Positions 10,845 to 50,581 of a DNA stretch of 64,000 nucleotides are shown in pieces (the stretch's first letter is position 1; each line of letters begins with the position of its first letter). The DNA is from Mayamaea pseudoterrestris (taxonomy: Eukaryota). The notes beneath the pieces were generated by a model. The model worked only from the letters and a program-made list of their open reading frames with translations, was not told the origin of the DNA and made no database searches. The stretch is taken from assembly GCA_027923505.1 (NCBI GenBank), contig BROI01000024.1, positions 310,001-374,000 of the forward strand, in the 5' to 3' direction. The position numbers were made by a program, and so were the translations under genes.

Positions 10845-13174
10845 ATGCTCAGTAGAAGTCTACTTGGCTGGACTTTTCTATTTGCACCTCTCCGTCTGTC
10901 AACACTGACTAATCGAGTTTTTGCACTTCGCCCATCAACCACCCACAAAAGTCGATCCCACTTTTCGACGACGACCAGCAGCACCTTGCAATCACATCAG
11001 CAAACTTTCTCGACTACTACTACCTCTTCCATCAGCATGTCGAGCCGAATCGAACAAGCCTTTACGGCTGCCAAGGAGCGCAACGAAGCTGCCTTTATTG
11101 CCTTTATCACTGCTGGATACCCGTCGGCCAAAGGTGAGTTGCTTATGGCAAACAGCGTGACAGAATCTGGAGAAAATTTGGCTCACGTACGATTGTTATA
11201 ACATTTCAAATGACAGACACTCCTGCCATTCTCATGGCCATGCAGGAGGGCGGCGCCTCGGTCATTGAGCTTGGCATTCCCTACACGGATCCCCAAGCCG
11301 ATGGCGCCACCATTCAGCACACCAACCAAGTCGCCATCAAGGGAGGAACTTCGGAAATTCCGCAATGCTTGAGCATGGTCACCAAGGCTCGTGACATGGG
11401 ACTGACAGTTCCGGTGGTACTCATGGGTTACTACAATCCGTTTCTGCAGTATGGAATTGACAAGCTGTGTCAAGACACCAAGTCGGCTGGCGCCGATGGC
11501 TACATTGTCGTAGATCTGCCACCGGAGGAAGGCATTGAGCTAAACAAGGCGTGTCTTAAGCATGGACTGTCCAACGTTCCACTCGTGGCTCCCACGAGCA
11601 GTGACTCCCGCATCGAGTCGCTGGCGAACATGGCGTCCACCTTTTTGTACTGCGTCTCCGTGACGGGTGTGACGGGTGCGCGCGACTCGCTGCCGGCGGA
11701 TTTGGAGGAGTTTATTGCGCGGGTGCGTTCCAAGACGGAACTTCCACTGGCGGTTGGTTTTGGTGTATCGAACCCAGACATGGTGCAGGGTATTTCCAAC
11801 TTGGCGGATGGTGTTGTGGTTGGAAGTGCCATATTAAAGGCCATGGACAAGCTTGGCGATGACGCCACGACGGAGGAGCGAGCCGGCATCATTCGCGAAA
11901 TTGTTGCGCATTTGAAATCGGGATGCAACCAAACGAATCCAACGAATCAGGCGACAAAGATGATGCAAGTACCAGCTGAATGGTCAGATGCCGCTAAGCC
12001 GAGTCACTTTGGTAACTTTGGCGGGCAATACATTCCAGAGACACTTTCGGTTGCTTTTGAAGAAATTGAAAAGGCGTACAATGAAATCAAGGATGATCCA
12101 GCGTTTTTGGCCGAGCTTGACGTGTATCGCCGCGACTTTGTCGGCGGACCGACACCGCTCCACAAGGCCGATCGTTTGACCGAATACGCTGGAGGTGCCA
12201 CTATCTGGTTGAAGCGCGAGGATTTGGCGCACACGGGAGCTCACAAGATCAACAACGCAGTTGGTCAGGCACTACTTGCCAAGCGACTAGGAAAGCCTCG
12301 CATCATTGCCGAGACTGGAGCTGGACAACATGGTGTCGCGACAGCGACCATTTGCGCCAAGTTGGGTTTGGAATGCATTGTATACATGGGCGCCGTCGAT
12401 TGCGAGCGACAAAAGCTAAATGTATTTAGAATGAACACTCTTGGGGCCAAGGTTGTGCCGGTGCAGGATGGACAAAAGACGCTCAAGGACGCTATTAACG
12501 AGGCCATGCGCGACTGGGTGACCAATGTGCGAGACACGCACTACTTGATTGGATCTGCTGTTGGTCCACACCCGTTCCCGACAATTGTCCGCGATTTCCA
12601 AAGCATCATGGGTAAAGAAATTAAGTGGCAAATGCAGGAAAAGGCTGGCAAGCTGCCAGATGCTGTTGTCGCCTGCGTTGGCGGAGGATCTAATGCGATT
12701 GGAGCATTCCATCCGTTTGTGAATGATCCTGAAGTAGCCTTGTACGGTTGCGAGGCTGCAGGTCACGGTATTGAAGTGGATGAGCAACATTGTGCGACAT
12801 TGAGCAAAGGGACACCAGGTGTCTTGCAAGGTGCTTTGACTTACGTCATTCAGCAAAAATCAGGCCAAACATTGAATACGCATTCCATCTCTGCTGGTCT
12901 CGATTACCCTGGTGTAGGTCCTGAGCATGCGTTCTTGAAGGACAGCGGCAGGGCTAAGTACGTCCCTGTTACCGACGACGAAGCGTTGGAAGGATTTAAG
13001 ATGATGTGCAAATACGAAGGAATCATTCCTGCGCTCGAAACCAGTCATGCGATTTACTACGCCATTAAGCTGGCCAAGGAACTCGGCCCAGGCAAGGACC
13101 TTGTGATCAACATGAGTGGCCGGGGCGACAAGGACATGCCCCAGGTTGCTCGCATCATGGGCGTTGAAGTTTAA
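10845..13174 (+). CDS. trpAB: Fused tryptophan synthase alpha-beta, with N-terminal presequence; intron 11134-11216
   Basis: Alpha motifs [27 protein letters not shown]; beta motifs [47 protein letters not shown] in one frame. Confidence 0.97.
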
Positions 13175-13197
13175 AGACTGTTACTTTTCTTGTCATA

Positions 13198-14865
13198 CTA
13201 AGTAGTTAAGCATGGACTATCAGATTTTTTAAATAGTATCGATTCGTAATTAGTGCATATTGAACCATGAAGTTGCATCAAATAAGTCTGCATGCTTTCG
13301 GCCCGTGGTGACAGCTGAGCTAGAAGGACGGCTTCCATATCGTAGTAGAGCTCGTGACTGACATTGGCAACGGCATTTGTGAAACGTCCCGCCCTGCCGG
13401 CAAGGTCTCCCGCTGCGGCGACATCGGCGGCGTCTGCTCGAGAGTCCCTGGGACTGCCAACTCTCATGGACCTGCAGCGGGAATGTTGGCTTCTGCGGAT
13501 TTGCACTGACGCTGACCGGATTGGAGCTGGACGATTAGACTTGCGAGTGTAGGCGTCAACCTGAGCCTTGACAAAAGCCTTTAAGCGACCTAGAGCTGGG
13601 CGGCTCGGCTGATCATGCGATTTGTTGCACTTGAGATTGGCGCACTTGCCCTTGATAAAGTAATTGAGGCAAAGAGGAATCTTGTCCCCATTTCTCAAAA
13701 CAGTAGGGCAGTGAACATAACATTTCGGGGAAAAGATTTCGCGAAACGGAGCCGGAAGCTTCAAGTCATCGCTGACGCGCTTCGAATAAACCTTCTTTCG
13801 GCGAACTACCGTCTTCTGCCGCTTATTGCTCGAATGACTCGCTACGTCAATGCTCATCTGCTCGTGAGCCCGTTTCTTGTCGTTGGCAGCTTGCATGCGA
13901 CGAGATGGAAGGTGATCCATCATGCATTGGGAATGAAGGTAAGACTTGTGCGAGTTCGAGTATAAACCATCTACAATCACTTGGAGCTGGTCGAGCATTG
14001 ATATATCGCGTTGGGTGATTTTACGGCAATCTTCCATATGTGCGTTGATGACCGCGTCAACAGCGTTGCACAAGTTGGCTAAATAGTCCACATCCTGAGA
14101 CAAACCGGCCGCAATCATTGACTCTTGTTCCATGATTGCTTTCTTGAAAGCGCGCAATCGACTGCCCACCAAAGATGTCACGCGGTCGTTTTTCGCGACA
14201 TTTGCAAAGATGTCAAACAGAATGGCGTATCGGTCTAAGCCAGTGCCAAATTCTTCCAGCGTGTCCGGGAAGTGATACTCGAGTGTATGCATTTCCTTTA
14301 CATAATCAGTATCATAGTTGTTGCACATCTCCAAGTACATGTTTTCCAAGCAAATGCTGCGATGTTTCGGCACCTTCATGAAAAGCATAAGCGAAACATG
14401 AAGGTTCGAAACGCGAATGGGAGGAATTGCCATTTGGTTGACGAGCAATGTCGAGAGACCTCTGCAAGCGAAGAACACAGGATCATGGCTCTCGAACACC
14501 TGGTCAAGGTAGTATGCGGCTTCAAGTTTCGTATCGCCATAAAAGCGACAATGAAAGTCATTTGGTTGTGCTGGTGTGACTCCCAACGAATTGGTGGCGA
14601 GCCGAAGCATCATGGTTTGATTGAAGGGAAGTAGCTCGTAGAAACCAGTCGAGGTGAAAAGTTGCAGCAGAGCAACGAGCCCTTTTTCATGGCGTCCCTC
14701 CTGCTGAAGAAACAGATCCATAGTCGAGCGGAACTGCTGCAAAAGGTTTGCCTTGGTCATTCCGTCAGCAACAAGGGTCTGGTTCTTGCTGTTCGCGGTG
14801 GTCGACGATGCGTCCTGCTCGTTCGATCCTGGATTAATAGAGTAAATATTGTCTGGCAAAGGCAT
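13198..14865 (-). CDS. Hypothetical protein with CCCH-type zinc finger, resembling YR-retrotransposon Gag (ORF1)
   Basis: Uninterrupted ORF (likely start MPLPDNIY at 14865) with CLNYFIKGKCANLKCNKSH; motif and upstream helical block resemble by eye ORF1 of the element at 48039-50192. Confidence 0.6.
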   Translation of the reverse strand: MPLPDNIYSINPGSNEQDASSTTANSKNQTLVADGMTKANLLQQFRSTMDLFLQQEGRHEKGLVALLQLFTSTGFYELLPFNQTMMLRLATNSLGVTPAQPNDFHCRFYGDTKLEAAYYLDQVFESHDPVFFACRGLSTLLVNQMAIPPIRVSNLHVSLMLFMKVPKHRSICLENMYLEMCNNYDTDYVKEMHTLEYHFPDTLEEFGTGLDRYAILFDIFANVAKNDRVTSLVGSRLRAFKKAIMEQESMIAAGLSQDVDYLANLCNAVDAVINAHMEDCRKITQRDISMLDQLQVIVDGLYSNSHKSYLHSQCMMDHLPSRRMQAANDKKRAHEQMSIDVASHSSNKRQKTVVRRKKVYSKRVSDDLKLPAPFREIFSPKCYVHCPTVLRNGDKIPLCLNYFIKGKCANLKCNKSHDQPSRPALGRLKAFVKAQVDAYTRKSNRPAPIRSASVQIRRSQHSRCRSMRVGSPRDSRADAADVAAAGDLAGRAGRFTNAVANVSHELYYDMEAVLLAQLSPRAESMQTYLMQLHGSICTNYESILFKKSDSPCLTT

Positions 14866-15173
14866 GTTATCAAACGTTGAGCAAATGACTGTCTTGCAGG
14901 AGTTTTTCGGCGAAATAATGAGAGAGGAGCCGGGATGTTGGTCATTACGCAATTGTTCCGTCGGGCATCGATCTTCTCGTCTTGGATGCGAACAAGTCGA
15001 GGAACGATCACACGAACGGAGTACCGCTACGACGACTACCGGCCGGCGCGGCATCCGCGCCAGCATCGCTACTCGAAACCCAAGCGTTTCGCTGCTGCAG
15101 CATGAAAGCAAAATGGCGCTAAAAACCGCTTGGCGCCAAACTTGAGCTTGTCGCTGAATCTTCCTTTCTTCTC

Positions 15174-16431
15174 ATGAATCCTTCCAATCAGATACCACCA
15201 GAAGCAGCGTCTGCTGCGGCAGTGTCGCTGCATGTTATTCAAAATGAAATTTTGCGAGAGGAGCCTCTCCTGGAAGCTGGCGCTGCAGAGACCGAGCCTG
15301 CAGCAGCTGCACCTGCCGTTTTGGAAACGCGTAAAATCCGCAAGGCGTCGTCGCGCAAACCCATCGTCTTGGTCGATTCGCAGGGGCAGGAAAAGACGTA
15401 CGGAAGCGCTCTTGGAGCGCTGACGCGCAAGTTTGTGGATATCATTCAAGTGAGTCTATTATTGGGGCCATGAGGTTAAACACGAACGCCTCATGATATA
15501 TATGTCCGACGCTCACCCTTTCCATGCAATCTTTATTAAAGTCGTCACAAAGCGGATCAATCGACATGAATGAAACTGCAGCCTTTCTTCAAGTTCCCAA
15601 ACGACGCATATATGACATTACAAACGTTTTGGAAGGTGTCGGGGTGAGTTCAGCGAAAGAAACAGATTTATGCCGATGGACATCATCGAATCTGACAGTC
15701 TATTGCCTATTGCTCACCTTTTCTTCTCTAACGTGATGTTTCAGATTCTAGAAAAACGAAGCAAGAACACAGTGGCATGGAAGGGATCAGAAGCCATTTT
15801 GGGGTCAGCCCTCGACGTAGACGTCAAGGAGCAGCTTGATACGCTTCGTCGCGATATAAATGCATATGCCAACGAGGAGGAATTGCTCGACCAATGGATG
15901 GCGCAGCTGTCCAAGAGTAATTCGACTCCAGCGTCAATGAGCTGCAGCGATGTTATTGAAGCATTCTTTCATCAAGCTGGAATGCAACCAGCGAACAAGG
16001 AAGACTTGGTCGACGAACTGAGCCGACCGCGGCAGTCGTTGCTGGCGATTCATGGTCCTCACGAGTGCTTGGTGCAGATCCCATCACCAGAATACGAAGG
16101 CCAATGTAACCGGCAGCTCTTTGTTGGAACCATGGATGCGATTGACAAGTTTGACGGCAATGAAGGTTCGTTGACTGGCAAGAAGCGCAAGCTTTCCTAC
16201 GAGCGATTGATGAGTTCCAAAACAGCGTCGCGATCCGATAATCATGTCAGCGTCTTTGTGTTATCAACATATTTTGACGACAAGGAGCAAAAGGTCATGT
16301 TTTCGGATCTCAAGGCTTTATCGAACGATGAAGCAAAGCAGGAGCGAAGTACCAGCTGGGATCTGGCCGAGACGCTGGCCAACGACGAAGGCGTTTCTGA
16401 CTTTATTGTTGCAGAAGAAGAAGCTGTCTGA
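15174..16431 (+). CDS. E2F: E2F-family transcription factor, 3 exons (introns 15450-15541, 15644-15744)
   Basis: SALGALTRKFVDIIQ...[42 protein letters not shown] winged-helix motif reassembled across canonical GT-AG introns. Confidence 0.93.
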
Positions 16432-16791: not shown

Positions 16792-17052
16792 GATTGCTGC
16801 TACCGGTACAGTGCTTTCTTTTATAATTATGAGGAAGAGGGATAACGACGAGTGAATTTGGGTGTTCGCCATTGCTGGATGCTGCAGGTCCGATCGGTAC
16901 TGGTTGCGACAGATAGACGTTTTCAAAACTCGCAACATGAGGTCGAGATGGCGCGCCAACTAACATAACGCGAGATTCCGATCGAATCATCGAACCTTTG
17001 CTAGTGCTTTCAGATCCGTCTGTTTACCTCTAGCAAGCAGTGATTACCAGTA

Positions 17053-20859: not shown

Positions 20860-21400
20860 GCTCCTTTGGCAATGTGCAAACGGTTCGTATGCAACTTGGA
20901 TGGCCCAATGACAGCATTCAACACTTATTCCATCCTTTAATATGCAAGCGGCAACGGTTCCTGATGTCTATAATGGTTATATGATTGGCGCTGGCTTTTG
21001 AAACGAATTTGCTGAAGCATTACAGTGAGGGACTGCCCCTTTGGCAATGTGCAAATTGCAAATGGTTTGCCTGCAACTAGGAAGGCCCAATAACAGCAAT
21101 CAACACGTGTTCCATCCTTTATTACACATGCGGCAACGGTTCTGACGTCTATAGTGGTGTATGTGGTCGGCGCTGGCTTCTGAAACAAATTTGCTGCAAC
21201 ATTCAGTGGGGGACTGCCACTTTTGCATTTGTGTAAACGGTTCGCCTGCAACCATGATGGCTCCATAACAACAATCAATACCCTTCCAACCTTTAGTATA
21301 CGAGCGGCAACGGATCCTGCCACTTCTTGCAGTTTATATGGCTGGCTTTTTTTAAGGTGAATTTGCTGAAGCATGCAATGGGGGACTGCTCCAATTGCAA
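20860..21400. repeat. Degenerate tandem repeat family B, ~3 copies of ~175-182 bp
   Basis: GCGGCAACGG recurs at 20948, 21130 and 21304; GGGACTGC and ATTTGCTG motifs recur at the same spacing. Confidence 0.85.
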
Positions 21401-21589: not shown

Positions 21590-24500
21590 TACATCCTGGT
21601 AGCGCACCTTAAACAAGGATGTTAGCACCACTCTGGCTGGAATGGGCATTCACATGGCTCAAGGGATGGACATTTGAAAGGCATGGCTTGCAGCTGCTGG
21701 CTGACACTGGTGACAAGTTATCACTAAGCACATGCCTGTCTACTGAGTCACCAGCCAGTCAACTTATCCTGTAGCGCACCTTAGACAAGGATGCTAGCAC
21801 CATTTGGCTTGATTTGAGCATACATATGGCTCAAGGGATGGGCTTTTGAAAGGCATGGCTTATTGCAGCTGGTGGCTGATACTGGTGACAAGTTATCACC
21901 AATCACATGCCATTCTACTGAGTCACCAGCCTGTCCTCTTCTCCTGTAGAACACCTGTAATAAAGATGTTAGCACAATTCTGGCTTGATTTGGGCACACA
22001 TGTGGCTCAAGGGTTAGGCATTTGAAAGGCATGGCAGCTGCTGGCTGAGACTGGTGACAAGTTATCACCAATCACATTCCAGTCTACTGAGACACCAGTC
22101 AGTCCCCTTATCCCATAACGCACCTTACATGGATGTTAGCACCATTCTGGCTTGAATTGGTCATTCACATGTCTCAAGGGATGGGCATTTGCAAGGCATG
22201 GCTTGCAGCTGCTGGCTGAGAACTGGTGACAATTTATTACCAATCACATTGCAGTCTACTGAGACACCAGACAGTCCTCTTATCCTGTAGCGCTCCTAAC
22301 ATAAGGATGTTTAGACCATTTTGGCTTGAAATGGGCATTCACATGGCTCAAGGGATGGGCATTTGAATGGCATGGCTTGCAGCTGCTGGCTGAGACTGGT
22401 GACAAGTTATCACCAATCACATTGCAGTCTACTGATACACCAGCCAGTCAACTTATCCTGTAGCGCACCTTAGACAAGGATGTTAGCACCATTCTGGCTT
22501 AAATGGGCATTCACATGGCTCAAGGGAAGGGCATTTGAAAGGCATGGCAGCTGCTGGCTGAGACTGATGACATGTTATCACCAATCACAATGCAGCATAC
22601 TGAGACACCAGCCAGTCCTCCTATTCTGTAGCGCTTCCTTTATTATGGATGTAAGCATAATTTTGGCTTGATTTAGACATACACATGGCTCAAGGGATGG
22701 GCATCTGAAAGGCATGGCAGCTGCTGGCTGAGACTGTGGACAAGCCAATCACATTGCAGTCTACTGAGACACCAGACAGTCCATTTATCCTGTAGCACAC
22801 CTTCAAAAATGATGTCAGTACATTTCTGGCTTGATTTGGGCATACATGTGGCTCAAGGGATGGGCAGTTGAAAGGCATGGCTGGCAGCTGGTGGCTGTGA
22901 CCGGTGACAAGTTATCACCCATCACAATGCAGTCTTCTGAGACACCAGCCAGTCAACTTATCCTGAAGCGCACCTGACATAAGGATGTATGCACCATTCT
23001 GGCTTGAATTGGGCATTCACATGGCTCAAGGGATGGGCATTTGAATGGCATGGCTTGCAGCTGCTTGCTGAGACTGGTGATGAGTTACCACCAATCACAT
23101 TGCAGTCTACTGAAACACCAGCCAGTCAACTAATCCTTTTGCGCACCTTAGACATGGATGTATGCACCACTCTGGTTTGAGATGGGCATTCGCATTGCTC
23201 AAGGAATGGGCATTTGAAAGGCATGGCTTGCAGCCGCTTGCTGGGACTGGTGACAATTTATCACCAATCACATTGCAGCCTACTGAGACACCAGTCAGTC
23301 CTCCTATCCTGTAGCGCACCTTAAACAAGGATGTTAGCACCATTCTGGCTTGAATTGGGCATTCACATGGCTAAAGGGATGGGCATTTGAAAGGCATGGC
23401 TTGCAGCTGCTGGCTAAGACTGGTGACAAGTTATCAACATTCACATTGCAGTCTACTGAAACACCAGCCAGTCAACTTATCCTGTAGCACACCTAAGACA
23501 AGGATGTAAACACCATTCTGTCTTGAAATGGTCATTCACATGGCTCAAGGGAAGGGCATTTGAAAGGCATGGTAGCTGCTGGCTGAGACTGGTGTCAACT
23601 TATCACCCAATCACAATGCAGTCTACTGTTGCACTCATTAAACAAGAATGTTAGCACCATTCTGGCTTGAATTAGTCATTCAAATGGCTCAAGGGATGGA
23701 CATTTGAAAGGCATGGCTTGCAGCCGCTTGCTAAAACTGGTGACAAGTTATCACCAATCACATTGCAGTCTACTGAGACACCAGTCGGTCCTCTTATCCT
23801 GTAGCGCTCCATAATTAAGGATGTCAGTACTATTCTGGCTTGATTTGGGCATACATGTGGCTCAAGGGATGGGCAGTTGAAAGGCATGGCTGGCAGCTGC
23901 TGGCTGAGACTGTGGACAAGGTATCACCCATCACATTGCAGTCTACTGAGACACCAGCTAGTCCTCTTATCCTGTAGCGCACCTGACATAAGGATGTATA
24001 CACCATTTTAGCTTAAAATGGGCATTGAAATGGCTCAAGGGATGGGCATTCGAATGGCATGGCTTGCAGCTGCTGGCTGAGACTGGTGACGAGTTATCAC
24101 CAATCACATTGCAGTCTACTGATACACCAGCCAGTCAACTTATCCTTTAGCGCAACTTAGACAAGGATGTAAGCACCATTTTAAATTGAGATGGGCATTT
24201 GCATGGCTCAAGGGATGGGCATTTGAAAGGCAATGCTTGCAGCCGCTTGCTGAGACTGGTGACGAGTTATCACCAATTACATTGCAGTCTACTGAAACAC
24301 CAGCCAGTCAACTTAACCTATAGCGCACCTTAAACAAGGATGTATGTACCACTCTTAATTGAGATGGGCATTTGCATGGCTCAAGGGATGGGCATTTGAA
24401 AGACATGGCTTGCAGCCACTTGCAGAGACTGGTGACAAATTATCATCCAATCACATTGCAGTCTACTGAGACACCAGTCAGTCCTCTTATCCTGTAGCGC

Positions 24501-25030
24501 ACCTTAAACAAGGATGTTAGCACCATTCTGGCTTGAATTGGGCATTCACATGGCTCAAGGGATGGGCATTTGATTGGCATGGCTTGCAGCCGCTTGCTGA
24601 GACTGGTGACAAGATATCACCAATCACATTGCAGTCTACTGAGACACCACTCAGTCCTCTTATCCTGTAGCGCACCTTAAACAAGGATGTTAGCACCATT
24701 CTGGCTTGAAATGGTCATTCACATGGCTCAAGGGATGGGCATTTGAAAGGCATGGCTTGCAGCCGCTGGCTGAGACTGGTGACAAGTTATCACCAATCAC
24801 ATTGCAGTCTACTGAGACACCAGTCAGTCCTTTTATCCTGTAGCGCACCTTAAACAAGGATGTTAGCACCATTCTATCTTGATTTGGGCATTCACATGGC
24901 TCAAGGGATGGCCATTTGAAAGGCATGGCTTGCAGCTGCTGGCTAAGACTGGTGACAAGTTATCACCAATCACATTGCAGTCTACTGAGACACCAGCCAG
25001 TCCTCTTATCCTGTTGCGCACCTTAAATAA
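21590..25030. repeat. Satellite-like tandem array, ~20 copies of a 173-bp monomer
   Basis: CACCATTCT starts at 24521, 24694 and 24867 (exact 173-bp period); the GGCTCAAGGG-like core recurs about 20 times from ~21657 to ~24898; one truncated unit near 23630. Confidence 0.97.
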
Positions 25031-25608
25031 GGTATAAGGTCAAAATTGTCCCTAATTTTGCTACAAGGACAGCTGCCTGTGGTGGTTGTGTACTCAGTAG
25101 CTGCATACAATGCCATGGCATGGGTGATGGGCACTGCAGCTAACAGAGGTGTTCCTGCAAGCCTACTCATGCAGTCGTGGGTCTTGTACATTGTTGCTGC
25201 CTGACACATCCTTGACAATGGCTGCTGCTGATATCTGGAGATTGAATGAAGGCTTCTGCAAGCCCACTGGCTCATAGGATAGCTAATGCAGGATTTACCA
25301 ATCCTCACAAAGAAACGCCATTGTCCTCGTCTGTACACAAAACAGTATAGATATCATTTTTCACTAATACAGTAAAAACATAGTACGTATTCGATGTAAC
25401 TTGAACCTATAAACCGAGCCCCCTGAACTGAATCGTTCCGCTACTCAACAAGTTAAGATCCGTTTTTTCTTCCAATTTTCTTCCAACCCCCAAATAATGT
25501 TCGATGAACAAGCAGCACAATTACCAATGTCTCAAAGTCTTTGTGTGTGTGTATGATAATAAAAAGTACAAATAGACTTCTTTGTTATTCAACACAAACA
25601 CTATTTTT

Positions 25609-43384: not shown

Positions 43385-43423
43385 TTTTGGGTCACGCGAG
43401 TTGTTGCTCAACAAGAGAAGTCG

Positions 43424-43541
43424 CGGGTTTCCCCGTCTTAGCCACTACTTCCAGCTACAGGGTTTTAAGGATGGCACACAGCTGGGTGGAGAGTAAGGCA
43501 TTTTACTTAATTTGCCTCCTCGCCGCCCCAAGGCGTGCGCC
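43424..43541 (-). repeat. Split direct repeat B2 (element 3' terminus)
   Basis: CGGGTTTCCCCG...GGCGTGCGCC, appears identical to 43852-43969. Confidence 0.95.
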
Positions 43542-43559
43542 GAGGGACGGGAGGGTGGG

Positions 43560-43851
43560 TGCACTTAATTCTATCTTCTTTCCTTGTCAAAAGCAGCACT
43601 CGAGGCAGCTCTCTAAAGGAATCAAAGGACAAGCGACTGTAGCAACAACAACAGGAGGGGCTGCTTGGAAGGAGCTTGCCTTCTTCAAAAGAATGGCTCC
43701 GAGCAGGGCGAAGGAGGATCAAAGGATGCTCTTCAACACGCTCAGGGGCTTATCTGCAACCACGCAGCTTTCAAAGCCGTATGGTGTCGCCACGCTGGCG
43801 ACTGTAACATATAGTGTAGTCTTTTCCTTCCGCTTTCAGCTGCGGCAAAGA
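43560..43851 (-). repeat. Split direct repeat A2
   Basis: TGCACTTAATT...GCGGCAAAGA, appears identical to 50200-50491. Confidence 0.95.
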
Positions 43852-43969
43852 CGGGTTTCCCCGTCTTAGCCACTACTTCCAGCTACAGGGTTTTAAGGAT
43901 GGCACACAGCTGGGTGGAGAGTAAGGCATTTTACTTAATTTGCCTCCTCGCCGCCCCAAGGCGTGCGCC
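43852..43969 (-). repeat. Split direct repeat B1
   Basis: Directly abuts A2; appears identical to B2. Confidence 0.95.
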
Positions 43970-44055
43970 TCCTTGCCACCCACTTTTCATCTTGGAGGAC
44001 AAAGGACACCCAAAGAGACGGGTGGGAAACGAGCGAAGCGAGTGTGGTGGGTAGG

Positions 44056-45204
44056 TTAGATGGGCTGCTGCGGGACAAAGGTGCCAGGGACCAGATTGTA
44101 GGTGCCACCTTGGACCATGCGAGCAGCGTAGCCGGTGGTGTGAGCAGCAGTGCCATGCAGGTAGCGTAGCATTGCGTCAGAACGCCAGCGGCCCATCAAT
44201 TTTATAATATTGTCATCGCAGCCGCCATTGAGGAGAGCCATAGCACCACCAGCGCGCAGGGAGCGAGCCTCAATGTCGGAGGGGTCTAAGCCCAGGGTAG
44301 GACCAAGTGCAATGACAGCATTGCGAAGGGTGCGCGTAATCTCCCCATTCTTGACGCCAAGAGGACGATTAGCACACCAGTAGGTTGCAAGCGGTGTGTG
44401 GGCAGTAGCACCATGCTCACGCAAATAAAGAATGCGCCGAGCAGCAGCAAGCACCGGACAGCAATGGAACAAGCCAGTGCGGCCTTGGCTAATGACTTCA
44501 CCGCGGACACCATTTTTCTGATTATCAAATGTGAACGACACCTGGGAAGCCGCCAACAAATCTGCAGCTGGTGCAGCAAAGAGATCAAGACGGCGGGAAC
44601 CCAGACAGAGTTGGACTGCACCTAGGCGTAGTGGTGGGGTGTTGCCACCGTGGGTGCCAGTGTACTCACCAGGGCGCATCAAGAAGAAGAAACCCAGGGT
44701 GATGATGTCGGCAAAGGTTTGCAGGGCAGGTGAGCCTGGTCCAGAATAGGCTTGGGCCAGGATGTGTTGCACAATGGTGACCGGAATTGGTTTGACGCGA
44801 GTAGGGGCTGGATCTTCGCGGTGCCAGCATTTAAATTGTTGCTGCAGCCGGTAGTCAATTTTGCCACAGGAATCTTGTCGAATGTCGTGGGACCCCATGC
44901 GGGCGAACGTCTGGCCCACCGCACGGATGGCGTCCGCCACTGTTGCAGCGCGGACGGGTTGACCGCTGGCGGAGAGTCGGCCATCGCGGTAACGGGTTGC
45001 CCAGACTTGGAGAGTTGGGACTGGGTCATCCAAGGTTTTGAGGAAAGGGTCGAGATGGTGTTCAAGACAGAAGTCACACCATGAGGCCCAATGCTTGTCC
45101 GCGGAGGCGGCTCTTGAAGGAACGACTCCGGCACGGATCTGGTCTTGGACAGTGCGGTAATCATGGTAGAAAGCATCTCGGGTCGTGGTTGGTACAGTTG
45201 CCAA
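44056..45204 (-). CDS. Tyrosine recombinase (ORF3) of the retrotransposon; overlaps the pol 3' end in the -1 frame
   Basis: WASWCDFC core-binding region, FFFLMRPGEY (Arg I), QKNG (Lys), ARSLRAGGA (Arg II), MGRWRSDAMLRYLH (Trp, catalytic Tyr). Begins with TTG; the true start is unknown. Confidence 0.93.
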   Translation of the reverse strand: MATVPTTTRDAFYHDYRTVQDQIRAGVVPSRAASADKHWASWCDFCLEHHLDPFLKTLDDPVPTLQVWATRYRDGRLSASGQPVRAATVADAIRAVGQTFARMGSHDIRQDSCGKIDYRLQQQFKCWHREDPAPTRVKPIPVTIVQHILAQAYSGPGSPALQTFADIITLGFFFLMRPGEYTGTHGGNTPPLRLGAVQLCLGSRRLDLFAAPAADLLAASQVSFTFDNQKNGVRGEVISQGRTGLFHCCPVLAAARRILYLREHGATAHTPLATYWCANRPLGVKNGEITRTLRNAVIALGPTLGLDPSDIEARSLRAGGAMALLNGGCDDNIIKLMGRWRSDAMLRYLHGTAAHTTGYAARMVQGGTYNLVPGTFVPQQPI

Positions 45205-48038
45205 GGTAGAGGCTGTGGGTAATGAGTGTTAAAGTAGGTGAGTAATTCAGAGTCAGACAAATGCCACAAACGGGAGGCCTTGTCCGCCATTTCATTCACT
45301 GGACCAGGAATGTAATCATGGAGTGGAACATAGCGATGTGTGCGTTGATGCAAGGACTGGCATCTGAGTAGGTATGCTGCTGGGCCAGTGGAGGTAGTGG
45401 AGCCCTTGCGCTGCCAAGCGACAGCTGGAGTGTTGTCGTGGGAGGTGTGAATGGTGCGCTCACGGATGTCAAAATTGTGTGCCAAAACATCATGATGGAG
45501 AACCGTCCCAAACAATTCCAAATCACTATTGGTAATAGTGCCATGTGGGTTGTCAAAACTCACCAAGTCCGCCTCAATGTGAGGAGGGAACCTGGCACGC
45601 CACAAGATTGGTTGTAGGGCATTGGTGGGCATGGAGACAAAGGCCACGGCCCCAGCGCCACGACCAGATGCATCAGTAGTGCCCACAATAGCCGGGTCAT
45701 CAGGAATCAATTCAGCAATGCGTGTTGGTCGTGTCTCTAGACCAGCCGCAATCCATCGAAAATCTTCCAGAAAGTCATGCACTGCCTGGGTCAACCGCAA
45801 ACGACCAGAGTGACCATCAGGATGGCGAAAGGCCTCTTGCAAGGAACTGAACAGACCACGGCTGCCAGGAATGGCCAAGGACATGGAGCGCAGCTCGCCC
45901 AAGAACTTGTGCCACTGCTTGGTGGCAATGCGGCGCCGAGTAGGAGGGATACTAGCTAGGATCTCACGTAGGCGTTCCAGGCGATGGGCTGGCAATGCAA
46001 CAGTCATGGCAACGGTATCAACCAACCAACCCAGGACTTGCTTGCGAGTGGTCCAAGCACCATCTCCTTTGAGTAACTTCTTGACAGACACTGGTTCTTG
46101 ACGAGCAGGTAAGTCAGTGGGCTCCAGTGGGCGTAGAACTTGGTCAAATGTGTGCAGGAGAACACGTTGCAACCTTAGCAGCCGATCCGGATTGCCTTGG
46201 GCTAAAGCAATCAAGTCATCCACATACAAGTCATTGTATGCAACAGGACGCTGGAGGATATCAGAGCGCTGGCGTGGAGCAGGAAGAGGCGCCACACTAG
46301 GATCATTGATGGGCGTATCCTCCACAGTCACAACAGGTGGGACAGAGCCGTGTGCGGGCACACTTCCAGGCAGGGGTGTTGGAGTGGTGGTAGCTGGTAA
46401 GGTTTGAGCTTGTAACTCCAGACGGTGAGGCGGTGGTGACTTGGCACCACACTGGAAGGCTTGATTGGCTAAGTCACAAATGGTCTCTGTCACTGCACAG
46501 AAATAGGGTGGAGAATGAATCCAACCCATAGGCAGTGTGAGTGGAAAAGCAATCAGAGGCTCCTCACCAGCACACTGAGGAAACAAGACACCAAGCTTGG
46601 GGATATCTCCAGGCAGCAAACGCACACGGTAAAATCCATCAGCAATATCCAACTTGGACATGTGGACGGGCCCATAGCGGGGGTTGGCTCGAGCAATGCG
46701 TTGCAGCAAACGATAAAAAGTGCGGCCAAACTGCATGGACTCCAGTGGCGCAACTGCAGCAGTGTCATCATTGACCCCAAAGTAGCTGTAGTCAGAGATG
46801 GTCCGAGGTCGCCGGTCTCGCTGAGGCACAACACCAAGAGGACTGAGTCGGAGTTGTTCCATTCCAAGGACCTGTGAGGCTGGTAGGACGGTCCAGTGGC
46901 CTTTCTTGATCATGTCAGTGAACTCCTCCCGCAGAAAAGCAGTGTGTTCAAAGGCAGACTTGTGAGGGCCCCTCTTGAGCGCCATTTGCTTTTGTGCTAG
47001 TGTCCAAGGCTTTTTCTGCATAATGGCTGGTGCGCCACGTGCATCCAATTGGTGTAGCAAATGTGCAGCTGGATGATCCAGATCCTTGACGCTGGGCTGT
47101 AAGTCAGAGGCGCCGCGGCTGGCCTCCACAAAAGCACGCCAATCCGGAGACAAAGCAAGACGTGCAGATGCCTCCTGAACCAGCTGCCCCAATTCATCAT
47201 CAAGTAGTTGCAAGGATGAGGTGTTGGTGTGTGTAGGCAACTTGGATGTAGAAAGACTGCCAGGCAAAGTGTAAGGAGGTGCAGATGCCTTTGGGGAGAC
47301 CAGGTCATGTGCCTTTGGCTGAGAGGCCCAGTGTGGAGCCCAGCCAGTTGCCATGGCAGGTAACTGTGCAGGTGCAGCAGTGGCTTCCATTGAGAGTGGA
47401 GCAGCCTTGCTGAATGCCAAGTGTGGTGCCATGGTAGGAGCAGCCTTGCTGGCAACCAAGTGTGGAGCCATGGCTTGGTGTGACACCACAACTGGGGAGG
47501 CGCCAGTACATGGGACTGGAGCAGCCACTGGAGAGGCATCAGCGGTGTGAAGGCCTGGAGAAGCCACATCCTCAGGTGCGACGGCGACAGACGATTCAAG
47601 GGGGCCTGGAGAAGCCACAGCCTGGTGTGTAGGTGTGACGGCAACAGATGGATTGGTGCTAGGAGCCAAGGTTGGACGACACTCAGGGTGGACAACTTGA
47701 CGACTTGCTTGGAGTTGACTTGCTTGGACTTGGACCAGGGACGCAGTGGGACCGGGGACAGAGGCCAATTTGATTACATTCCTGGCAGCAGTAGGCAAGA
47801 GACGTGGTGTGGGCAGTAACAATGGTTCTTTCTGCACAACATGCACGCCAGCTTGCTTACCAAGTTCAGGAGATAGGACAGGTGACACAGTAGATTTAAA
47901 ACGTTTACTACTGGGCGACTTAATTACTGGAACTACTTCTTCATTTTCGACAACTGGACCTGCGACTCTGGATGGTGGAACAGCAGAGGTTGCAGGCGTC
48001 AGCGGATTATAACATATAGGGATCCGCCCGCCGGACCG
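44679..48038 (-). CDS. Reverse transcriptase + RNase H (ORF2/pol), open from the codon right after the gag UGA
   Basis: LSPLGVVPQ...RTISDYS, KLDIADGFYRV, LPMGWIHSPPYF, YVDD; RNase H TDAS, NSDLEL, HDN, ADKASR. The 50 codons 48038-47889 contain no stop and no ATG. Confidence 0.95.
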   Translation of the reverse strand, partial: RSGGRIPICYNPLTPATSAVPPSRVAGPVVENEEVVPVIKSPSSKRFKSTVSPVLSPELGKQAGVHVVQKEPLLLPTPRLLPTAARNVIKLASVPGPTASLVQVQASQLQASRQVVHPECRPTLAPSTNPSVAVTPTHQAVASPGPLESSVAVAPEDVASPGLHTADASPVAAPVPCTGASPVVVSHQAMAPHLVASKAAPTMAPHLAFSKAAPLSMEATAAPAQLPAMATGWAPHWASQPKAHDLVSPKASAPPYTLPGSLSTSKLPTHTNTSSLQLLDDELGQLVQEASARLALSPDWRAFVEASRGASDLQPSVKDLDHPAAHLLHQLDARGAPAIMQKKPWTLAQKQMALKRGPHKSAFEHTAFLREEFTDMIKKGHWTVLPASQVLGMEQLRLSPLGVVPQRDRRPRTISDYSYFGVNDDTAAVAPLESMQFGRTFYRLLQRIARANPRYGPVHMSKLDIADGFYRVRLLPGDIPKLGVLFPQCAGEEPLIAFPLTLPMGWIHSPPYFCAVTETICDLANQAFQCGAKSPPPHRLELQAQTLPATTTPTPLPGSVPAHGSVPPVVTVEDTPINDPSVAPLPAPRQRSDILQRPVAYNDLYVDDLIALAQGNPDRLLRLQRVLLHTFDQVLRPLEPTDLPARQEPVSVKKLLKGDGAWTTRKQVLGWLVDTVAMTVALPAHRLERLREILASIPPTRRRIATKQWHKFLGELRSMSLAIPGSRGLFSSLQEAFRHPDGHSGRLRLTQAVHDFLEDFRWIAAGLETRPTRIAELIPDDPAIVGTTDASGRGAGAVAFVSMPTNALQPILWRARFPPHIEADLVSFDNPHGTITNSDLELFGTVLHHDVLAHNFDIRERTIHTSHDNTPAVAWQRKGSTTSTGPAAYLLRCQSLHQRTHRYVPLHDYIPGPVNEMADKASRLWHLSDSELLTYFNTHYPQPLPWQLYQPRPEMLSTMITALSKTRSVPESFLQEPPPRTSIGPHGVTSVLNTISTLSSKPWMTQSQLSKSGQPVTAMADSPPAVNPSALQQWRTPSVRWARRSPAWGPTTFDKIPVAKLTTGCSNNLNAGTAKIQPLLASNQFRSPLCNTSWPKPILDQAHLPCKPLPTSSPWVSSS

Positions 48039-50192
48039 TCAATTGCGGGGCTCAAGATGCTCCAATGCCCAAGCCAACAAGGCATCATCAGCTGCCTGAC
48101 TATGCTTGATGTGGTCGGCTTTGCGCTTGCACAACGAGTCACATTTGCCACGCAAATGATAAGCCATGCAGGGAGCAGTAGCGAGTCCTGGGATGCTATC
48201 CTTGGTGGGCCAACTCTTGTCCTCGGGATTCTTCCTCATCAAGCGGAGTTGGCGCTTGTCCTTCTGGAAGGCTTCAAAGGCTGGGTTGTAATCCAGGTTG
48301 ATGACCACCGCATTCGCCTTGGTAGAAGGACTGTTGCCGCTTGCACCCGTCAAAGTAGAAGCCGCGGTGGTATGAGTGCCTTTGCTGTTGACACTGCTAC
48401 CAACCTTGATGGATCCTGGGATGTCGGCTGCCTTGTTGAGTTGCTTGCTTAGTTGAGTGCAATACTTGGCAGGCAAAGGAGGCAGGACAGAGAGATTGCC
48501 AATTTCCAAGTCCTCCATGACACTGGCCAGATCCGGGACGGCCTTGTAGGTGGGAGAAGTCTCCATAGTCTTGAACCAACGGTGGAAGCGGACTTGGACT
48601 GCTCGCAGCATGAGGGAGGGTCCCTGCTCACCAAGGCTAGCCAAGGCGTGCTGATAGGTAGGAATGTTGGCTTCAAATGTCTTGGTCCAATGCTCCAACG
48701 TGCAGACAAGCTCATGATCTTCCCCAAAGTACTGTGTGAGGAGGATTAGGTAGGCCCGGCACATGCGTGCTGCCAGGAAGTAGTTGGTTGGCAGCACCAC
48801 TTTGGAAGTAACAGCCTGGAGTTCCTTAGTATCTTGGTAGGTGATTGCATGACCGCCACTTAGGATGTCGTCATGCGCCTGCGCCGCTTGGAGGACTTCA
48901 GCTGACATGTTTGAGCCTTGGAGAACAGTCAGATTGGGTGGTACCATCATGAAGACATTGATGCCTCCACTAAAATCATCCTTGTCGGCGCCTGCAAAGT
49001 CTCCATCTTGAAGCCGTCGGCTAATGTGCGGCGTCACAATAGGAGCATAGTCTTGGTTACCCGCTGCCACCGCACCCTCAACTAGATGGTCTTGCACTAC
49101 CTTGCGCTTGTCCTTGTCAGCCGTGGCGGCGAGGAGGTGGTGCAGTTCGGGATAGCCACTTGGTGAAGCAATGCGTAGCATGATGCTAGTGCGCCGTAAT
49201 TGTGTCGCAGTTAAAATGTCGGAGACTTTCTTGGGTGCCTTGGCTGCGCCCGGCGCGAGCCTCTTCACGGGCTCGGCCTCGGCTGCATCCTTAGCTTGGC
49301 GCTCCAAAAGGTTGACCAAAGCACTTTGATTTGGATCGGGTTGGGCGAACAAGTCCGGCAAGAGGCGCCGCAAGTTGGTCGAGGTGAACCGGGCCACATC
49401 GGCATCCCAGCTCGGAGCGGCTCGTGCAATTCCTGGAATAGTAGGCACTCCATCAGCGGCTCGGCAAGTAACCAATAGCTTTAGCCAAGTGCAAAGGTTG
49501 GTCAAGACATGTTCCAGCCCCGCATCAATAATAGCCGGCGCCAAACGGTCGAAGAATTCGCGCCGCGTAAAACCCTGCCCAATCACCAGCGGTGCGAACC
49601 GCACGGGCAAGGCCTGAACCATCCGCGCACGACCTTGGACAATGGTCGCATCGTCTTCGTCAACCGGCTGCAATGGAGGCAAATACTCAGTGCCAGCAGG
49701 CAAGCCTTGCAATCGCTCCATTGTTTGTGCCAATGTTGCTGGCACATTTGTGAAGTGCCCGTTCAATGGACTGAGATGAAAATCTGCCACCGTCAGTTCG
49801 ACGAGGCCTGCCGTGCCTTGGAAAACCTCCGTACCAAAACCGATGACTCGATTGTCCCAGCGGTTGGTGCGACCTGCAACGGCAAGGTACCGCTGGGCCC
49901 CGACAATGGCGTGAATGCAACCATGCATAGGCTGGTCGGCCTCGACCAAGGCAGCAACAAGAATGGGAGCGGTCTCCAAGGGCGTGTCGACCAAACCTTT
50001 AAAGCAATCAGCTGCAGTTAAAGGAGGATCGGCAGTGCGAGTGAGACCGTTCAAACCATTGTATTCACCGTTCAAAGGATCATTACTTGCCTGACTGTAA
50101 CGGGCAAGGAAGGTGACCGTAGGGAGAGTGGCCCCGGCAAAAGGAATGGCGGCGGCTGCGGCAGCGGCGTCGGCTCCATTGACGGCGGCCAT
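48039..50192 (-). CDS. Gag-like ORF1 with C-terminal CCCH-type zinc finger
   Basis: ATG at 50192 just inside repeat A1; 717 aa; CMAYHLRGKCDSLCKRKADH near the C-terminus; position upstream of RT. Confidence 0.85.
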   Translation of the reverse strand: MAAVNGADAAAAAAAIPFAGATLPTVTFLARYSQASNDPLNGEYNGLNGLTRTADPPLTAADCFKGLVDTPLETAPILVAALVEADQPMHGCIHAIVGAQRYLAVAGRTNRWDNRVIGFGTEVFQGTAGLVELTVADFHLSPLNGHFTNVPATLAQTMERLQGLPAGTEYLPPLQPVDEDDATIVQGRARMVQALPVRFAPLVIGQGFTRREFFDRLAPAIIDAGLEHVLTNLCTWLKLLVTCRAADGVPTIPGIARAAPSWDADVARFTSTNLRRLLPDLFAQPDPNQSALVNLLERQAKDAAEAEPVKRLAPGAAKAPKKVSDILTATQLRRTSIMLRIASPSGYPELHHLLAATADKDKRKVVQDHLVEGAVAAGNQDYAPIVTPHISRRLQDGDFAGADKDDFSGGINVFMMVPPNLTVLQGSNMSAEVLQAAQAHDDILSGGHAITYQDTKELQAVTSKVVLPTNYFLAARMCRAYLILLTQYFGEDHELVCTLEHWTKTFEANIPTYQHALASLGEQGPSLMLRAVQVRFHRWFKTMETSPTYKAVPDLASVMEDLEIGNLSVLPPLPAKYCTQLSKQLNKAADIPGSIKVGSSVNSKGTHTTAASTLTGASGNSPSTKANAVVINLDYNPAFEAFQKDKRQLRLMRKNPEDKSWPTKDSIPGLATAPCMAYHLRGKCDSLCKRKADHIKHSQAADDALLAWALEHLEPRN

Positions 50193-50199
50193 GGAGGAA

Positions 50200-50491
50200 T
50201 GCACTTAATTCTATCTTCTTTCCTTGTCAAAAGCAGCACTCGAGGCAGCTCTCTAAAGGAATCAAAGGACAAGCGACTGTAGCAACAACAACAGGAGGGG
50301 CTGCTTGGAAGGAGCTTGCCTTCTTCAAAAGAATGGCTCCGAGCAGGGCGAAGGAGGATCAAAGGATGCTCTTCAACACGCTCAGGGGCTTATCTGCAAC
50401 CACGCAGCTTTCAAAGCCGTATGGTGTCGCCACGCTGGCGACTGTAACATATAGTGTAGTCTTTTCCTTCCGCTTTCAGCTGCGGCAAAGA
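50200..50491 (-). repeat. Split direct repeat A1 (element 5' terminus)
   Basis: Appears identical to 43560-43851. Confidence 0.95.
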
Positions 50492-50581
50492 GACGGAAAA
50501 GCCCGTCACCACACCGAATTCTGTAAACCAAAGTCGTCCTCTCTCTCTCGCTCCACAATCAGCAATAGTCAAGCCAACATC

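What the first reader, a model, noticed from the sequence alone, without database searches (positions are those of the whole stretch)
13198..14865. Solitary gag-like gene among housekeeping genes: candidate domesticated YR-retrotransposon Gag
Seen: CPT..IPLCLNYFIKGKCANLKCNKSHDQPSRPALGRLKAF parallels WPT..APCMAYHLRGKCDSLCKRKADHIKHSQAADDALLAW of the element's ORF1. Upstream, YVKEMHTLEYHFPDTLEEFGTGLDRYAILFDIF...LANLCNAVDAVINAHM parallels DTKELQAVTSKVVLPTNYFLAARMCRAYLILLTQYF...SLMLRAVQVRFHRWF in the same order. No RT, YR or terminal repeats flank it. It is CpG-rich like host genes and packed tightly between TrpAB and E2F. Inference: an exapted Gag, analogous to Arc/PEG10 but from the DIRS order, or a restriction factor against such elements.
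Basis: inference. Interest (0 to 1): 0.7.

Follow-up and report, generated by a model that had tools for sequence, protein, structure and literature searches.

The report
Truncated retrotransposon-like gene, two divergent versions
Between two housekeeping genes of a diatom sits a stand-alone, shortened relative of the first gene of a recombinase-type jumping gene, apparently kept by the host in two very different versions, as might be expected of a defence against such elements, though its origin and job are not proven.

Summary
The frame at 14865-13198 (-) is real. It matches the C-terminal 60% of a family of 671-741-aa diatom and environmental proteins (5 relatives, E 4e-37 to 7e-13, 25-29% identity). 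Their N-terminal 270-340 aa are missing here. The link to ORF1 of the window's Ngaro-type element is moderate. The zinc-finger domain matches (E 3e-4), and both proteins share 2 of 3 top ESM-Atlas clusters. The relatives' gene neighbourhoods could not be fetched. No RT, YR or terminal repeats flank the gene, and its CpG level is host-like. New: all four runs carry 29 extra bases near codon 461, so the window's last ~95 codons are probably an assembly error. Two spliced runs cover the gene. Two haplotype contigs differ strongly inside it (15 of 30 bases in two sampled ends, in frame, no stop). Best reading: a host-kept, truncated ORF1 that binds RNA or ORF1 and restrains YR retrotransposons, like yeast DRT2 (0.33). 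Co-option of a DIRS ORF1 is already known (LAP2alpha, ZNF451); I found no stand-alone or diatom case.

The parts
13546..14865 (-). Coding core, aa 1-440: homologue of the C-terminal 60% of the P0005-P0010 family; the family's N-terminal 270-340 aa are absent
   Evidence: phmmer aa 38-447, E 4e-37 to 7e-13; tblastn of the relatives hits only 14748-13525, nothing upstream; codon usage coding-like in this frame only
13873..14664 (-). All-helical core domain, aa 68-331 (family motifs GF..L, LRLAT..P, FP, FD, D..A...N..D, LPS)
   Evidence: AlphaFold2 pLDDT 76.7, pTM 0.80 from 7 sequences; alignment
13537..13788 (-). Zinc-finger domain, aa 360-443: beta-hairpin, CCCH finger, closing helix
   Evidence: block pLDDT 74-89 over aa 361-440; hhalign to the element ORF1 end, E 0.0003
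13615..13671 (-). C399-x8-C408-x4-C413-x3-H417; all four ligands invariant in the family
   Evidence: Pfam zf-CCCH_12 only below cut-off
14535..14613 (-). aa 85-111, conserved motif block laid by both haplotype contigs; the window changes here from matching one haplotype to matching the other
   Evidence: tables 5, 8
14614..14875 (-). aa 1-84 and start region: replaced by 317 other letters (window 262) in one haplotype contig
   Evidence: tables 5, 7, 8
   Evidence: tables 5, 7, 8
14194..14226 (-). aa 214-224 (FD motif): short stretch on which both haplotype contigs end, inferred to be shared
   Evidence: table 8; arithmetic
13445..13483 (-). Site where all four runs carry 29 more bases than the window (frameshift near aa 461-474)
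   Evidence: tables 4, 8
13320..13322 (-). TAG that ends the frame of the +29 form (at most 524 aa)
13198..13444 (-). Window's tail (aa 475-555), probably not real protein; overlaps the likely TrpAB 3' UTR
14866..15173 (.). 308-bp head-to-head spacer with E2F; candidate shared promoter (inferred)
   Evidence: both haplotype contigs match 14876-14983 with few differences
11210..13174 (+). Neighbour: fused tryptophan synthase alpha-beta (main exon)
15174..16431 (+). Neighbour: E2F, with introns (first one 15450-15541)
43424..50491 (-). Comparison element, not part of the gene: Ngaro-type YR retrotransposon, A1(50200-50491)-ORF1(48039-50192)-RT/RH(44679-47471)-YR(44056-44898)-B1(43852-43969)-A2(43560-43851)-B2(43424-43541)
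   Evidence: 292-nt and 118-nt repeats, each 100% identical; RVT_1 and Phage_integrase weak; layout as in PMC8547959

Best explanation
The gene is a host-kept, 5'-truncated ORF1 of a tyrosine-recombinase (Ngaro/DIRS-order) retrotransposon lineage and works as a restriction factor against such elements. Step 1, origin (likely; inferred from homology): an element of the P0005-like family left the 3' 60% of its ORF1 between TrpAB and E2F and lost RT, YR and repeats. Step 2, expression (cover shown; promoter inferred): it is transcribed from the 308-bp spacer that it shares head-to-head with E2F. Step 3, retention (partly shown): selection kept the frame, the helical core and the CCCH finger while most other residues changed fast. 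Step 4, mechanism (inferred only): the finger binds element RNA and the core joins ORF1 assemblies; lacking the N-terminal half, it spoils the ribonucleoprotein or particle, as Ty1' Gag-derived DRT2 does in yeast. Step 5 (inferred): two very different versions persist because each covers different ORF1 families.
For: Family homology E 4e-37 to 7e-13 over about 400 aa. 21 of 30 family-invariant columns are kept at 22-29% overall identity, including all four zinc ligands. Family versus element ORF1: hhalign E 0.016 and 0.0017 over 285 collinear columns; scores 28.1 and 36.4 exceed 49 of 49 column shuffles each. An HMM of the six relatives ranks the element ORF1 first after the gene itself among 160 six-frame window ORFs plus 2 added proteins (E 0.007, about 150 aa). 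ESM Atlas: the same 340-aa/89-member and 267-aa/211-member clusters are ranks 1 and 3 for both proteins (0.94/0.92 and 0.96/0.96). No RT, YR or repeats nearby; host-like CpG. Contigs of two runs with GT..AG joints cover most of 13272-14613, and their loose ends show both versions. The two versions are in register and stop-free in both sampled 30-base ends (15 of 30 bases; 4 and 3 of 10 residues identical; read by hand), and one replaced stretch differs by +6 bases. By contrast, 19 of 19 listed TrpAB differences are synonymous. With point changes alone, an open 460-codon frame survives in 281, 38 and 7 of 2000 runs at 5, 10 and 14% change per lineage. A young Ngaro-type element is in the window.
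Against: Outside the finger, similarity to the element ORF1 is not above shuffles: core 13.6 (A1) and 17.6 (A3) against maxima 19.1 and 18.4, n=70; N-terminal halves 14.4 against maximum 20.6, n=100; global test 1.7 against maxima 9.0 and 10.1, n=49 each. The Atlas recognition value for the gene (1655) is below the level at which a high score is strong. No relative was shown next to RT or YR. No orthologue of the same layout appeared among 1.84 billion representatives, so synteny and dN/dS are untested. The closest full-length relative is only 29% identical, whereas Drt2 and Ty1' Gag share considerable identity (PMC10951436, section 9); poisoning by co-assembly is therefore less plausible. The gene keeps fewer invariant columns than most relatives (24-26 of 35-37, against 30). 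The version evidence is 60 bases taken at alignment breaks, and the second version's frame was not seen whole. Its 5' part differs by 55 bases, so it may be frameshifted. An E2F intron stretch and an intergenic stretch are also replaced between haplotypes, so part of the divergence is regional age. Contigs give no strand.
Confidence: 0.33

Rival explanations
1. Same origin from a YR-element ORF1, but co-opted as an RNA- or chromatin-binding host protein with a job unrelated to defence, perhaps co-regulated with E2F (works like LAP2alpha or ZNF451-L2a).
For: Kept finger and core. Head-to-head position with E2F. Low identity to any full-length ORF1-like protein. Precedent of DIRS1 ORF1 co-option under purifying selection (PMC4495291, passages).
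Against: No orthologue found. Strong amino-acid divergence between versions while TrpAB differences are all synonymous is unusual for a settled housekeeping role.
Confidence: 0.2
2. A decaying relic of an old insertion. It is transcribed by leak from the E2F promoter or TrpAB read-through, and its frame is open by luck or by selection that ended recently.
For: 5'-truncated; no orthologue. Fewer invariant columns kept than most relatives. Out-of-frame length differences at the 5' end (55 bases) and near codon 461. At 3-5% change per lineage the frame survives in 573 and 281 of 2000 simulations. Non-coding stretches nearby are also strongly diverged.
Against: Local synonymous divergence looks higher: 11 and 15 differences over 82 synonymous sites in one TrpAB stretch. 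The sampled ends are gap-free and stop-free at 50% base identity, and the blocks shared by both haplotype contigs coincide with family motifs. CpG is not depleted, unlike in the element and the tandem array.
Confidence: 0.22
3. The 700-aa family is a diatom host family of CCCH proteins that shares only the finger (or a very old ancestor) with YR-element ORF1; this gene is a truncated, fast-evolving paralogue.
For: No signal beyond the finger. Different finger spacing. The three named relatives are single-member clusters annotated as genes. The best PDB sequence hits of the profile are cellular CCCH fingers, all insignificant (E 0.46-2.2).
Against: Shared top Atlas clusters with a positionally proven ORF1. 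Same length class and C-terminal linker-finger-helix layout. Paralogues only 22-35% identical to each other and one (P0009) garbled in mid-sequence, as expected of element families. The HMM match extends about 110 aa upstream of the finger.
Confidence: 0.2

Closest known systems
LAP2alpha domain of TMPO/LAP2alpha and ZNF451-L2a, from ORF1 of a DIRS1-like element (PMC4495291; abstract and passages seen)
   Same: Host use of ORF1 ('gag') of a DIRS-order YR retrotransposon; single coding exon; no RT or YR kept.
   Different: There an exon fused into existing mammalian genes, shown by clear similarity to element copies and dN/dS 0.16-0.38. Here a stand-alone gene in a diatom, of a CCCH-ending ORF1 type, with no Pfam LAP2alpha match and with origin and selection only partly shown.
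DRT2 of Saccharomyces cerevisiae, restriction factor from Ty1' GAG (PMC10951436; abstract, outline and section 9 seen)
   Same: Truncated C-terminal part of a retrotransposon structural gene, left without pol, transcribed, with variable alleles.
   Different: DRT2 is an LTR/copia capsid C-terminal domain with considerable identity to its target and was shown to restrict 22- to 30-fold. This gene is 29% identical to its closest full-length relative, keeps a zinc finger, and is untested.
ORF1 of Ngaro retrotransposons, e.g. Cafeteria burkhardae (PMC8547959; passages seen) and the element at 43424-50491
   Same: Probable homology of the C-terminal part; CCCH-like finger at the end.
   Different: No split direct repeats, RT/RH or YR; N-terminal half missing; host-like CpG. 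In Cafeteria, ORF1 appears to steer the integration site, so 'capsid' is not the only possible role.
Domesticated VIPER gene of trypanosomatids (PMC5146736; part 1 of 3 of the text seen)
   Same: Stand-alone host gene from a YR retrotransposon, no element remnants around it.
   Different: Derived from ORF3 (RT/RH), and syntenic in several species.
Arc, PEG10 and other Metaviridae Gag-derived genes (recalled; PEG10 seen in search listings only)
   Same: Retrotransposon structural gene kept by the host.
   Different: These carry the retroviral-type capsid fold. DIRS-order ORF1 has no clear homology to it (PMC4495291).

Membership tests
Complete Ngaro/DIRS-order retrotransposon (the gene's own locus) | RT/RNase H and tyrosine recombinase frames beside ORF1 | tested here: not met
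   tblastn with the element's RT and YR finds nothing else in the window; neighbours are TrpAB and E2F
Complete Ngaro/DIRS-order retrotransposon (the gene's own locus) | Split direct or inverted terminal repeats | tested here: not met
   (20 of 25 direct families and 5 inverted pairs shown)
YR-retrotransposon ORF1 protein family | Homology to a positionally proven ORF1 beyond the finger | tested here: inconclusive
   whole-profile scores above 49 of 49 shuffles and shared Atlas clusters; no signal without the finger
YR-retrotransposon ORF1 protein family | C-terminal Cys/His finger like that of the element's ORF1 | tested here: met
   hhalign E 0.0003; four ligands invariant; spacing differs
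YR-retrotransposon ORF1 protein family | Full-length relatives lie first in RT/YR elements | not testable with these tools
   no genome held; scans returned no locus; could not be run with the alignment
Domesticated (exapted) TE gene | Stand-alone, with an intact frame and transcription | tested here: met
   cover in two spliced runs, strand unknown; tail uncertain
Domesticated (exapted) TE gene | Purifying selection (dN/dS below 1) | tested here: inconclusive
   indirect only: invariant columns, frame-survival simulation, 60 bases of the other versions
Domesticated (exapted) TE gene | Syntenic orthologues in related species | tested here: inconclusive
   no same-layout homologue among 6 hits; no related genomes searchable
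Retroviral-type Gag-derived genes (Arc, PEG10, Fv1, DRT2) | Capsid (CA) fold | tested here: inconclusive
   fold searches of both models; see Tried and rejected
Gag-derived restriction factor | Lowers mobility of the cognate element and associates with its particles | not testable with these tools
   needs a retromobility assay
Cellular CCCH proteins (Pfam zf-CCCH families) | Pfam CCCH match at the curated cut-off | tested here: not met
   7.6 bits against cut-off 27; 3 of 6 relatives match zf-CCCH_12 weakly, best E 0.0029

The most novel reading that the evidence does not exclude
A diatom restriction factor built from the ORF1 of Ngaro-type retrotransposons, driven by a cell-cycle (E2F) promoter and kept as an ancient balanced polymorphism. 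Its two alleles are about 50% identical in variable stretches, share only the family motifs, and each targets different YR-element families. It would mark an undescribed helical ORF1 domain as the assembly module of these elements.
Probability: 0.17. Interest if true: 0.78.

Novelty: new variant of a known kind. Interest (0 to 1): 0.47.

Why it matters
What ORF1 of YR retrotransposons does is an open question; it is called Gag by position only. A host-kept half of ORF1 that inhibits these elements would show which part assembles and binds RNA, and would give a testable handle on DIRS-order replication. It would also extend Gag-derived restriction (DRT2, Fv1) to another retrotransposon order and to diatoms. 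Two very divergent versions at one locus between conserved genes are worth phasing whatever the origin. If it is a relic or an ordinary paralogue, the value shrinks to a gene-model correction and an unannotated stramenopile protein family.

Tried and rejected
Pairwise BLASTP with the element ORF1: nothing. Word-index homologue searches: only the gene itself, 2 relatives of the element ORF1, and only P0005 for the family profile; each scored just 8000 candidates of near length.

Neighbourhoods of relatives. Metagenome scans with P0010 and alignment A3 gave 49 and 110 pattern matches, none confirmed. Viral scans with A3 and the RT gave 172 and 8, none confirmed. A prokaryote-genome scan with the RT gave 77, none confirmed. 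No whole genome is held. A search of the 2 supplementary files of PMC9724779 held as text, for the neighbours of two named relatives, gave 0 hits; supplements not held may bear on this.

Folds. The full model gave no Foldseek match at E<=0.001 in PDB or BFVD; VIA-align matched only its low-confidence tail helix (best Z 6.5). The core model gave best Z 4.6 (rmsd 3.9, 107 aligned, a designed helical repeat) among 48,161 chains, and no BFVD match. No capsid was listed among the top 50 rows; this neither excludes one nor shows a new fold. The finger domain was not folded alone, and the element ORF1 was not folded.

Complex prediction of the gene's aa 68-443 with P0005 aa 300-690: no answer (score 0.00, alignments not used).

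Runs. No RNA holder is listed on record; I treat X4 and X5 as RNA-like only because of their GT..AG joints. X4 and X5 give no cover in the bin 14819-15019 and next to none in 15623-15823, which is no proof of anything. In X1 and X2 only one contig is laid over 13081-14193, at about half the depth inferred for the short shared stretch (13.1 against 28; 71.8 against 134). I read this as a hint that the other haplotype is under 90% alike there too, but depth is no copy number and filters drop records. I laid 4 of the 5 holders, at 90% likeness, once.

Rejected: the 622-aa start at 15066 for both versions (they differ by 55-56 bases between there and the core, not a multiple of 3); the window's tail as real protein; remnants of the family's N-terminal half upstream. 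A link to LAP2alpha's known tie with Rb/E2F (recalled) is treated as coincidence.

Print. Searches showed no stand-alone domesticated YR ORF1 and no diatom case in the rows listed (at most 20 each; subscription journals are missing). PMC3783388, PMC5633606, PMC3266345, PMC3670739, PMC9004415 and PMC6681497 were seen as passages only and gave no such case. Earlier-findings look-ups by sequence, by words and near the locus were empty.

Full report
Setting. The window is from a pennate diatom by gene content; the named relatives found are from Mayamaea pseudoterrestris. No whole genome is held. The finding is a single-exon frame on the minus strand, 14865-13198 (555 aa). It lies tail-to-tail with a fused TrpA-TrpB gene and head-to-head with E2F, 308 bp from its ATG. 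About 30 kb away lies a Ngaro-type retrotransposon (43424-50491). Its repeats follow the A1-ORFs-B1-A2-B2 layout with 292- and 118-nt copies, each 100% identical, as described for Cafeteria Ngaros (PMC8547959, passages). Its ORF1 (P0002) is therefore an ORF1 by position.

What the protein is related to. phmmer over 1.84 billion representatives gave 6 hits: the gene itself and five proteins of 671-741 aa (E 4e-37 to 7e-13, 25-29% identity over aa 38-447). Three are named M. pseudoterrestris hypothetical proteins and two are environmental; a sixth (P0010) came as a cluster member. The gene matches only their C-terminal 60%, and tblastn finds no trace of their first 270-340 aa upstream, so it is 5'-truncated. 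The relatives end 5-25 aa after the helix that follows the finger. The gene keeps 21 of the 30 columns invariant in the five relatives, including C399, C408, C413 and H417. In leave-one-out counts it keeps 24-26 of 35-37 where a relative keeps 30, and 36 of 48 where P0009 keeps 30. AlphaFold2 gives a compact all-helical core (aa 68-331, pTM 0.80) and a separate hairpin-finger-helix domain (aa 361-440, block pLDDT 74-89). Fold-library results are under Tried and rejected.

Is the family a retrotransposon ORF1? An HMM built from the six relatives alone ranks the element ORF1 first after the gene itself among 160 window ORFs plus two added proteins (E 0.007). The ESM Atlas returns the same two unnamed, mostly oomycete-labelled clusters at ranks 1 and 3 for both proteins (clusters matched by length, size and taxa). 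Against: the signal is carried by the finger domain (E 0.0003). With it removed, neither the core nor the N-terminal halves nor a global alignment exceeds shuffles; the element-side profile is only 1-3 sequences deep, so these tests are weak. BLASTP finds nothing, and the Atlas recognition value of the gene is low (1655). The direct test, gene neighbourhoods of the relatives, could not be run. I put the ORF1 origin at 0.75-0.8.

Is it kept by the host? It has no RT, YR or terminal repeats. CpG o/e is 1.08, within the range of 11 host ORFs (0.91-1.25) and unlike the element (0.54-0.75) or the tandem array (0.14). Codon usage is coding-like in frame. Four public runs were laid as contigs. X4 and X5 skip two GT..AG introns of the neighbours and X1 and X2 do not, so I read X4 and X5 as RNA-like. 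Their contigs cover 13272-13742 and 13791-14320 (X4), and 13300-13660, 13747-14010 and 14070-14613 (X5). Strand and level cannot be told.

Correction of the gene model. All 4 of 4 runs, from two studies, have 29 more bases at about 13445-13483 in a contig that otherwise equals the window over 13051-14223. This shifts the frame near codon 461 and puts the stop at 13320-13322 or earlier. The window's aa 475-555 have non-coding-like codon usage and are probably an assembly error.

Two divergent versions. In both X1 and X2, two contigs (792 and 842 nt) span 14197-14983. One matches the window at 14535-14983 and is replaced over 14227-14534 by a stretch 6 bases longer. The other matches at 14197-14613 and is replaced over 14614-14875 (317 letters for 262). 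Both match the upstream spacer, so they are alleles or copies of a duplicated block, and the window looks like a mosaic of the two. The 30-base loose ends seen in X4 and X5 lie in register with the window at 15 of 30 bases each (chance 0.003 at 25%). By hand they translate without stops, with 4 and 3 of 10 residues identical. The blocks laid by both contigs, aa 85-111 and 214-224, are family motifs. Of the 182 differences found, 40 were listed; I classed the 31 in coding exons and dropped 9 non-coding ones. TrpAB gave 19 of 19 synonymous and E2F 9 of 12. One TrpAB stretch has 11 and 15 differences over 82 synonymous sites, so the haplotypes are old here. An E2F intron stretch and an intergenic stretch are also replaced. 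At 10-14% neutral change per lineage the frame would stay open in 38 and 7 of 2000 simulations, at 3-5% in 573 and 281. The pattern fits a functional, fast-changing gene, but it rests on 60 bases taken at alignment breaks, and the 55-base difference at the 5' end could mean that one version is broken.

Mechanism. Shown: truncated family member, intact finger, stand-alone position, cover in spliced runs, two divergent versions. Inferred: element origin, promoter sharing with E2F, RNA binding by the CCCH finger (general knowledge of CCCH fingers), and interference with ORF1 assemblies. The closest working model is yeast DRT2, a truncated Ty1' Gag with variable alleles that cut retromobility 22- to 30-fold (PMC10951436, abstract and section 9). 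The low identity to any full-length relative (29%) weakens simple co-assembly. I give restriction 0.33, another host job 0.20, decay 0.22 and a non-element host family 0.20.

Known versus new. Co-option of a DIRS-order ORF1 is in print: the LAP2alpha domains of mammalian TMPO and ZNF451 come from ORF1 of a DIRS1-like element, and that paper notes that ORF1 has no clear homology to retroviral Gag (PMC4495291, passages; found through PMC5753468, passages). A VIPER RT/RH gene is domesticated in trypanosomatids (PMC5146736, first third). In the searches named under Tried and rejected I saw no stand-alone ORF1 gene, no Ngaro-type case and no diatom case. It is thus a candidate new variant of a known kind. 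It is not a member of the element class, since RT, YR and repeats are absent, and it is not shown to be an Arc/PEG10-like capsid gene. Two earlier AI notes report other YR-element ends in this genome; I did not check them. Verdict: observation partly confirmed, interpretation partly supported, interest 0.47.

Noticed in passing
window 21593-25032: Tandem array of 173 bp, 20.1 copies, 82% matches, CpG o/e 0.14, next to 2.5 copies of a 182-bp unit at 20875-21319; looks like a methylated satellite inside a gene-dense region.
   Followed up: partly
window 43424-50491 (-): Apparently intact, young Ngaro-type YR retrotransposon with 100% identical split direct repeats, an 18-bp C-rich spacer between A2 and B2, and an extra 190-aa frame (46997-47569) overlapping the start of the RT frame.
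   Followed up: partly
window 50333-51691 (+) and 43180-43869 (+): The A repeat holds an outward-reading frame; from the 5' copy it runs on into host DNA as a 452-aa ORF, a possible element-host fusion or the remains of the interrupted gene.
   Followed up: no
window 15649-15743 and 16800-16908: An E2F intron stretch and an intergenic stretch are replaced in one haplotype contig of X1 and X2; coding neighbours differ mostly at synonymous sites, so the two haplotypes here are old.
   Followed up: partly
window 14866-15171 (-): The gene's frame stays open upstream across the whole spacer (657 codons stop to stop; ATG at 15066), with coding-like codon score in 15066-14866.
   Followed up: partly
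P0009 aa about 325-385; P0003: P0009 loses the family pattern in mid-sequence, as if the gene model crosses a frameshift; P0003 lacks about 250 aa of the middle of the element ORF1.
   Followed up: no
ESM Atlas clusters (340 aa/89 members; 267 aa/211; 418 aa/105; 222 aa/59): Large unnamed clusters labelled oomycete or diatom, without Pfam, resemble the element ORF1 and/or this gene: probably an unannotated stramenopile YR-ORF1 superfamily.
   Followed up: no
window 11131-11215: The TrpA-TrpB fusion has a 5' intron (83 nt, GT..AG), so its start lies upstream of the ORF listed at 11210.
   Followed up: no
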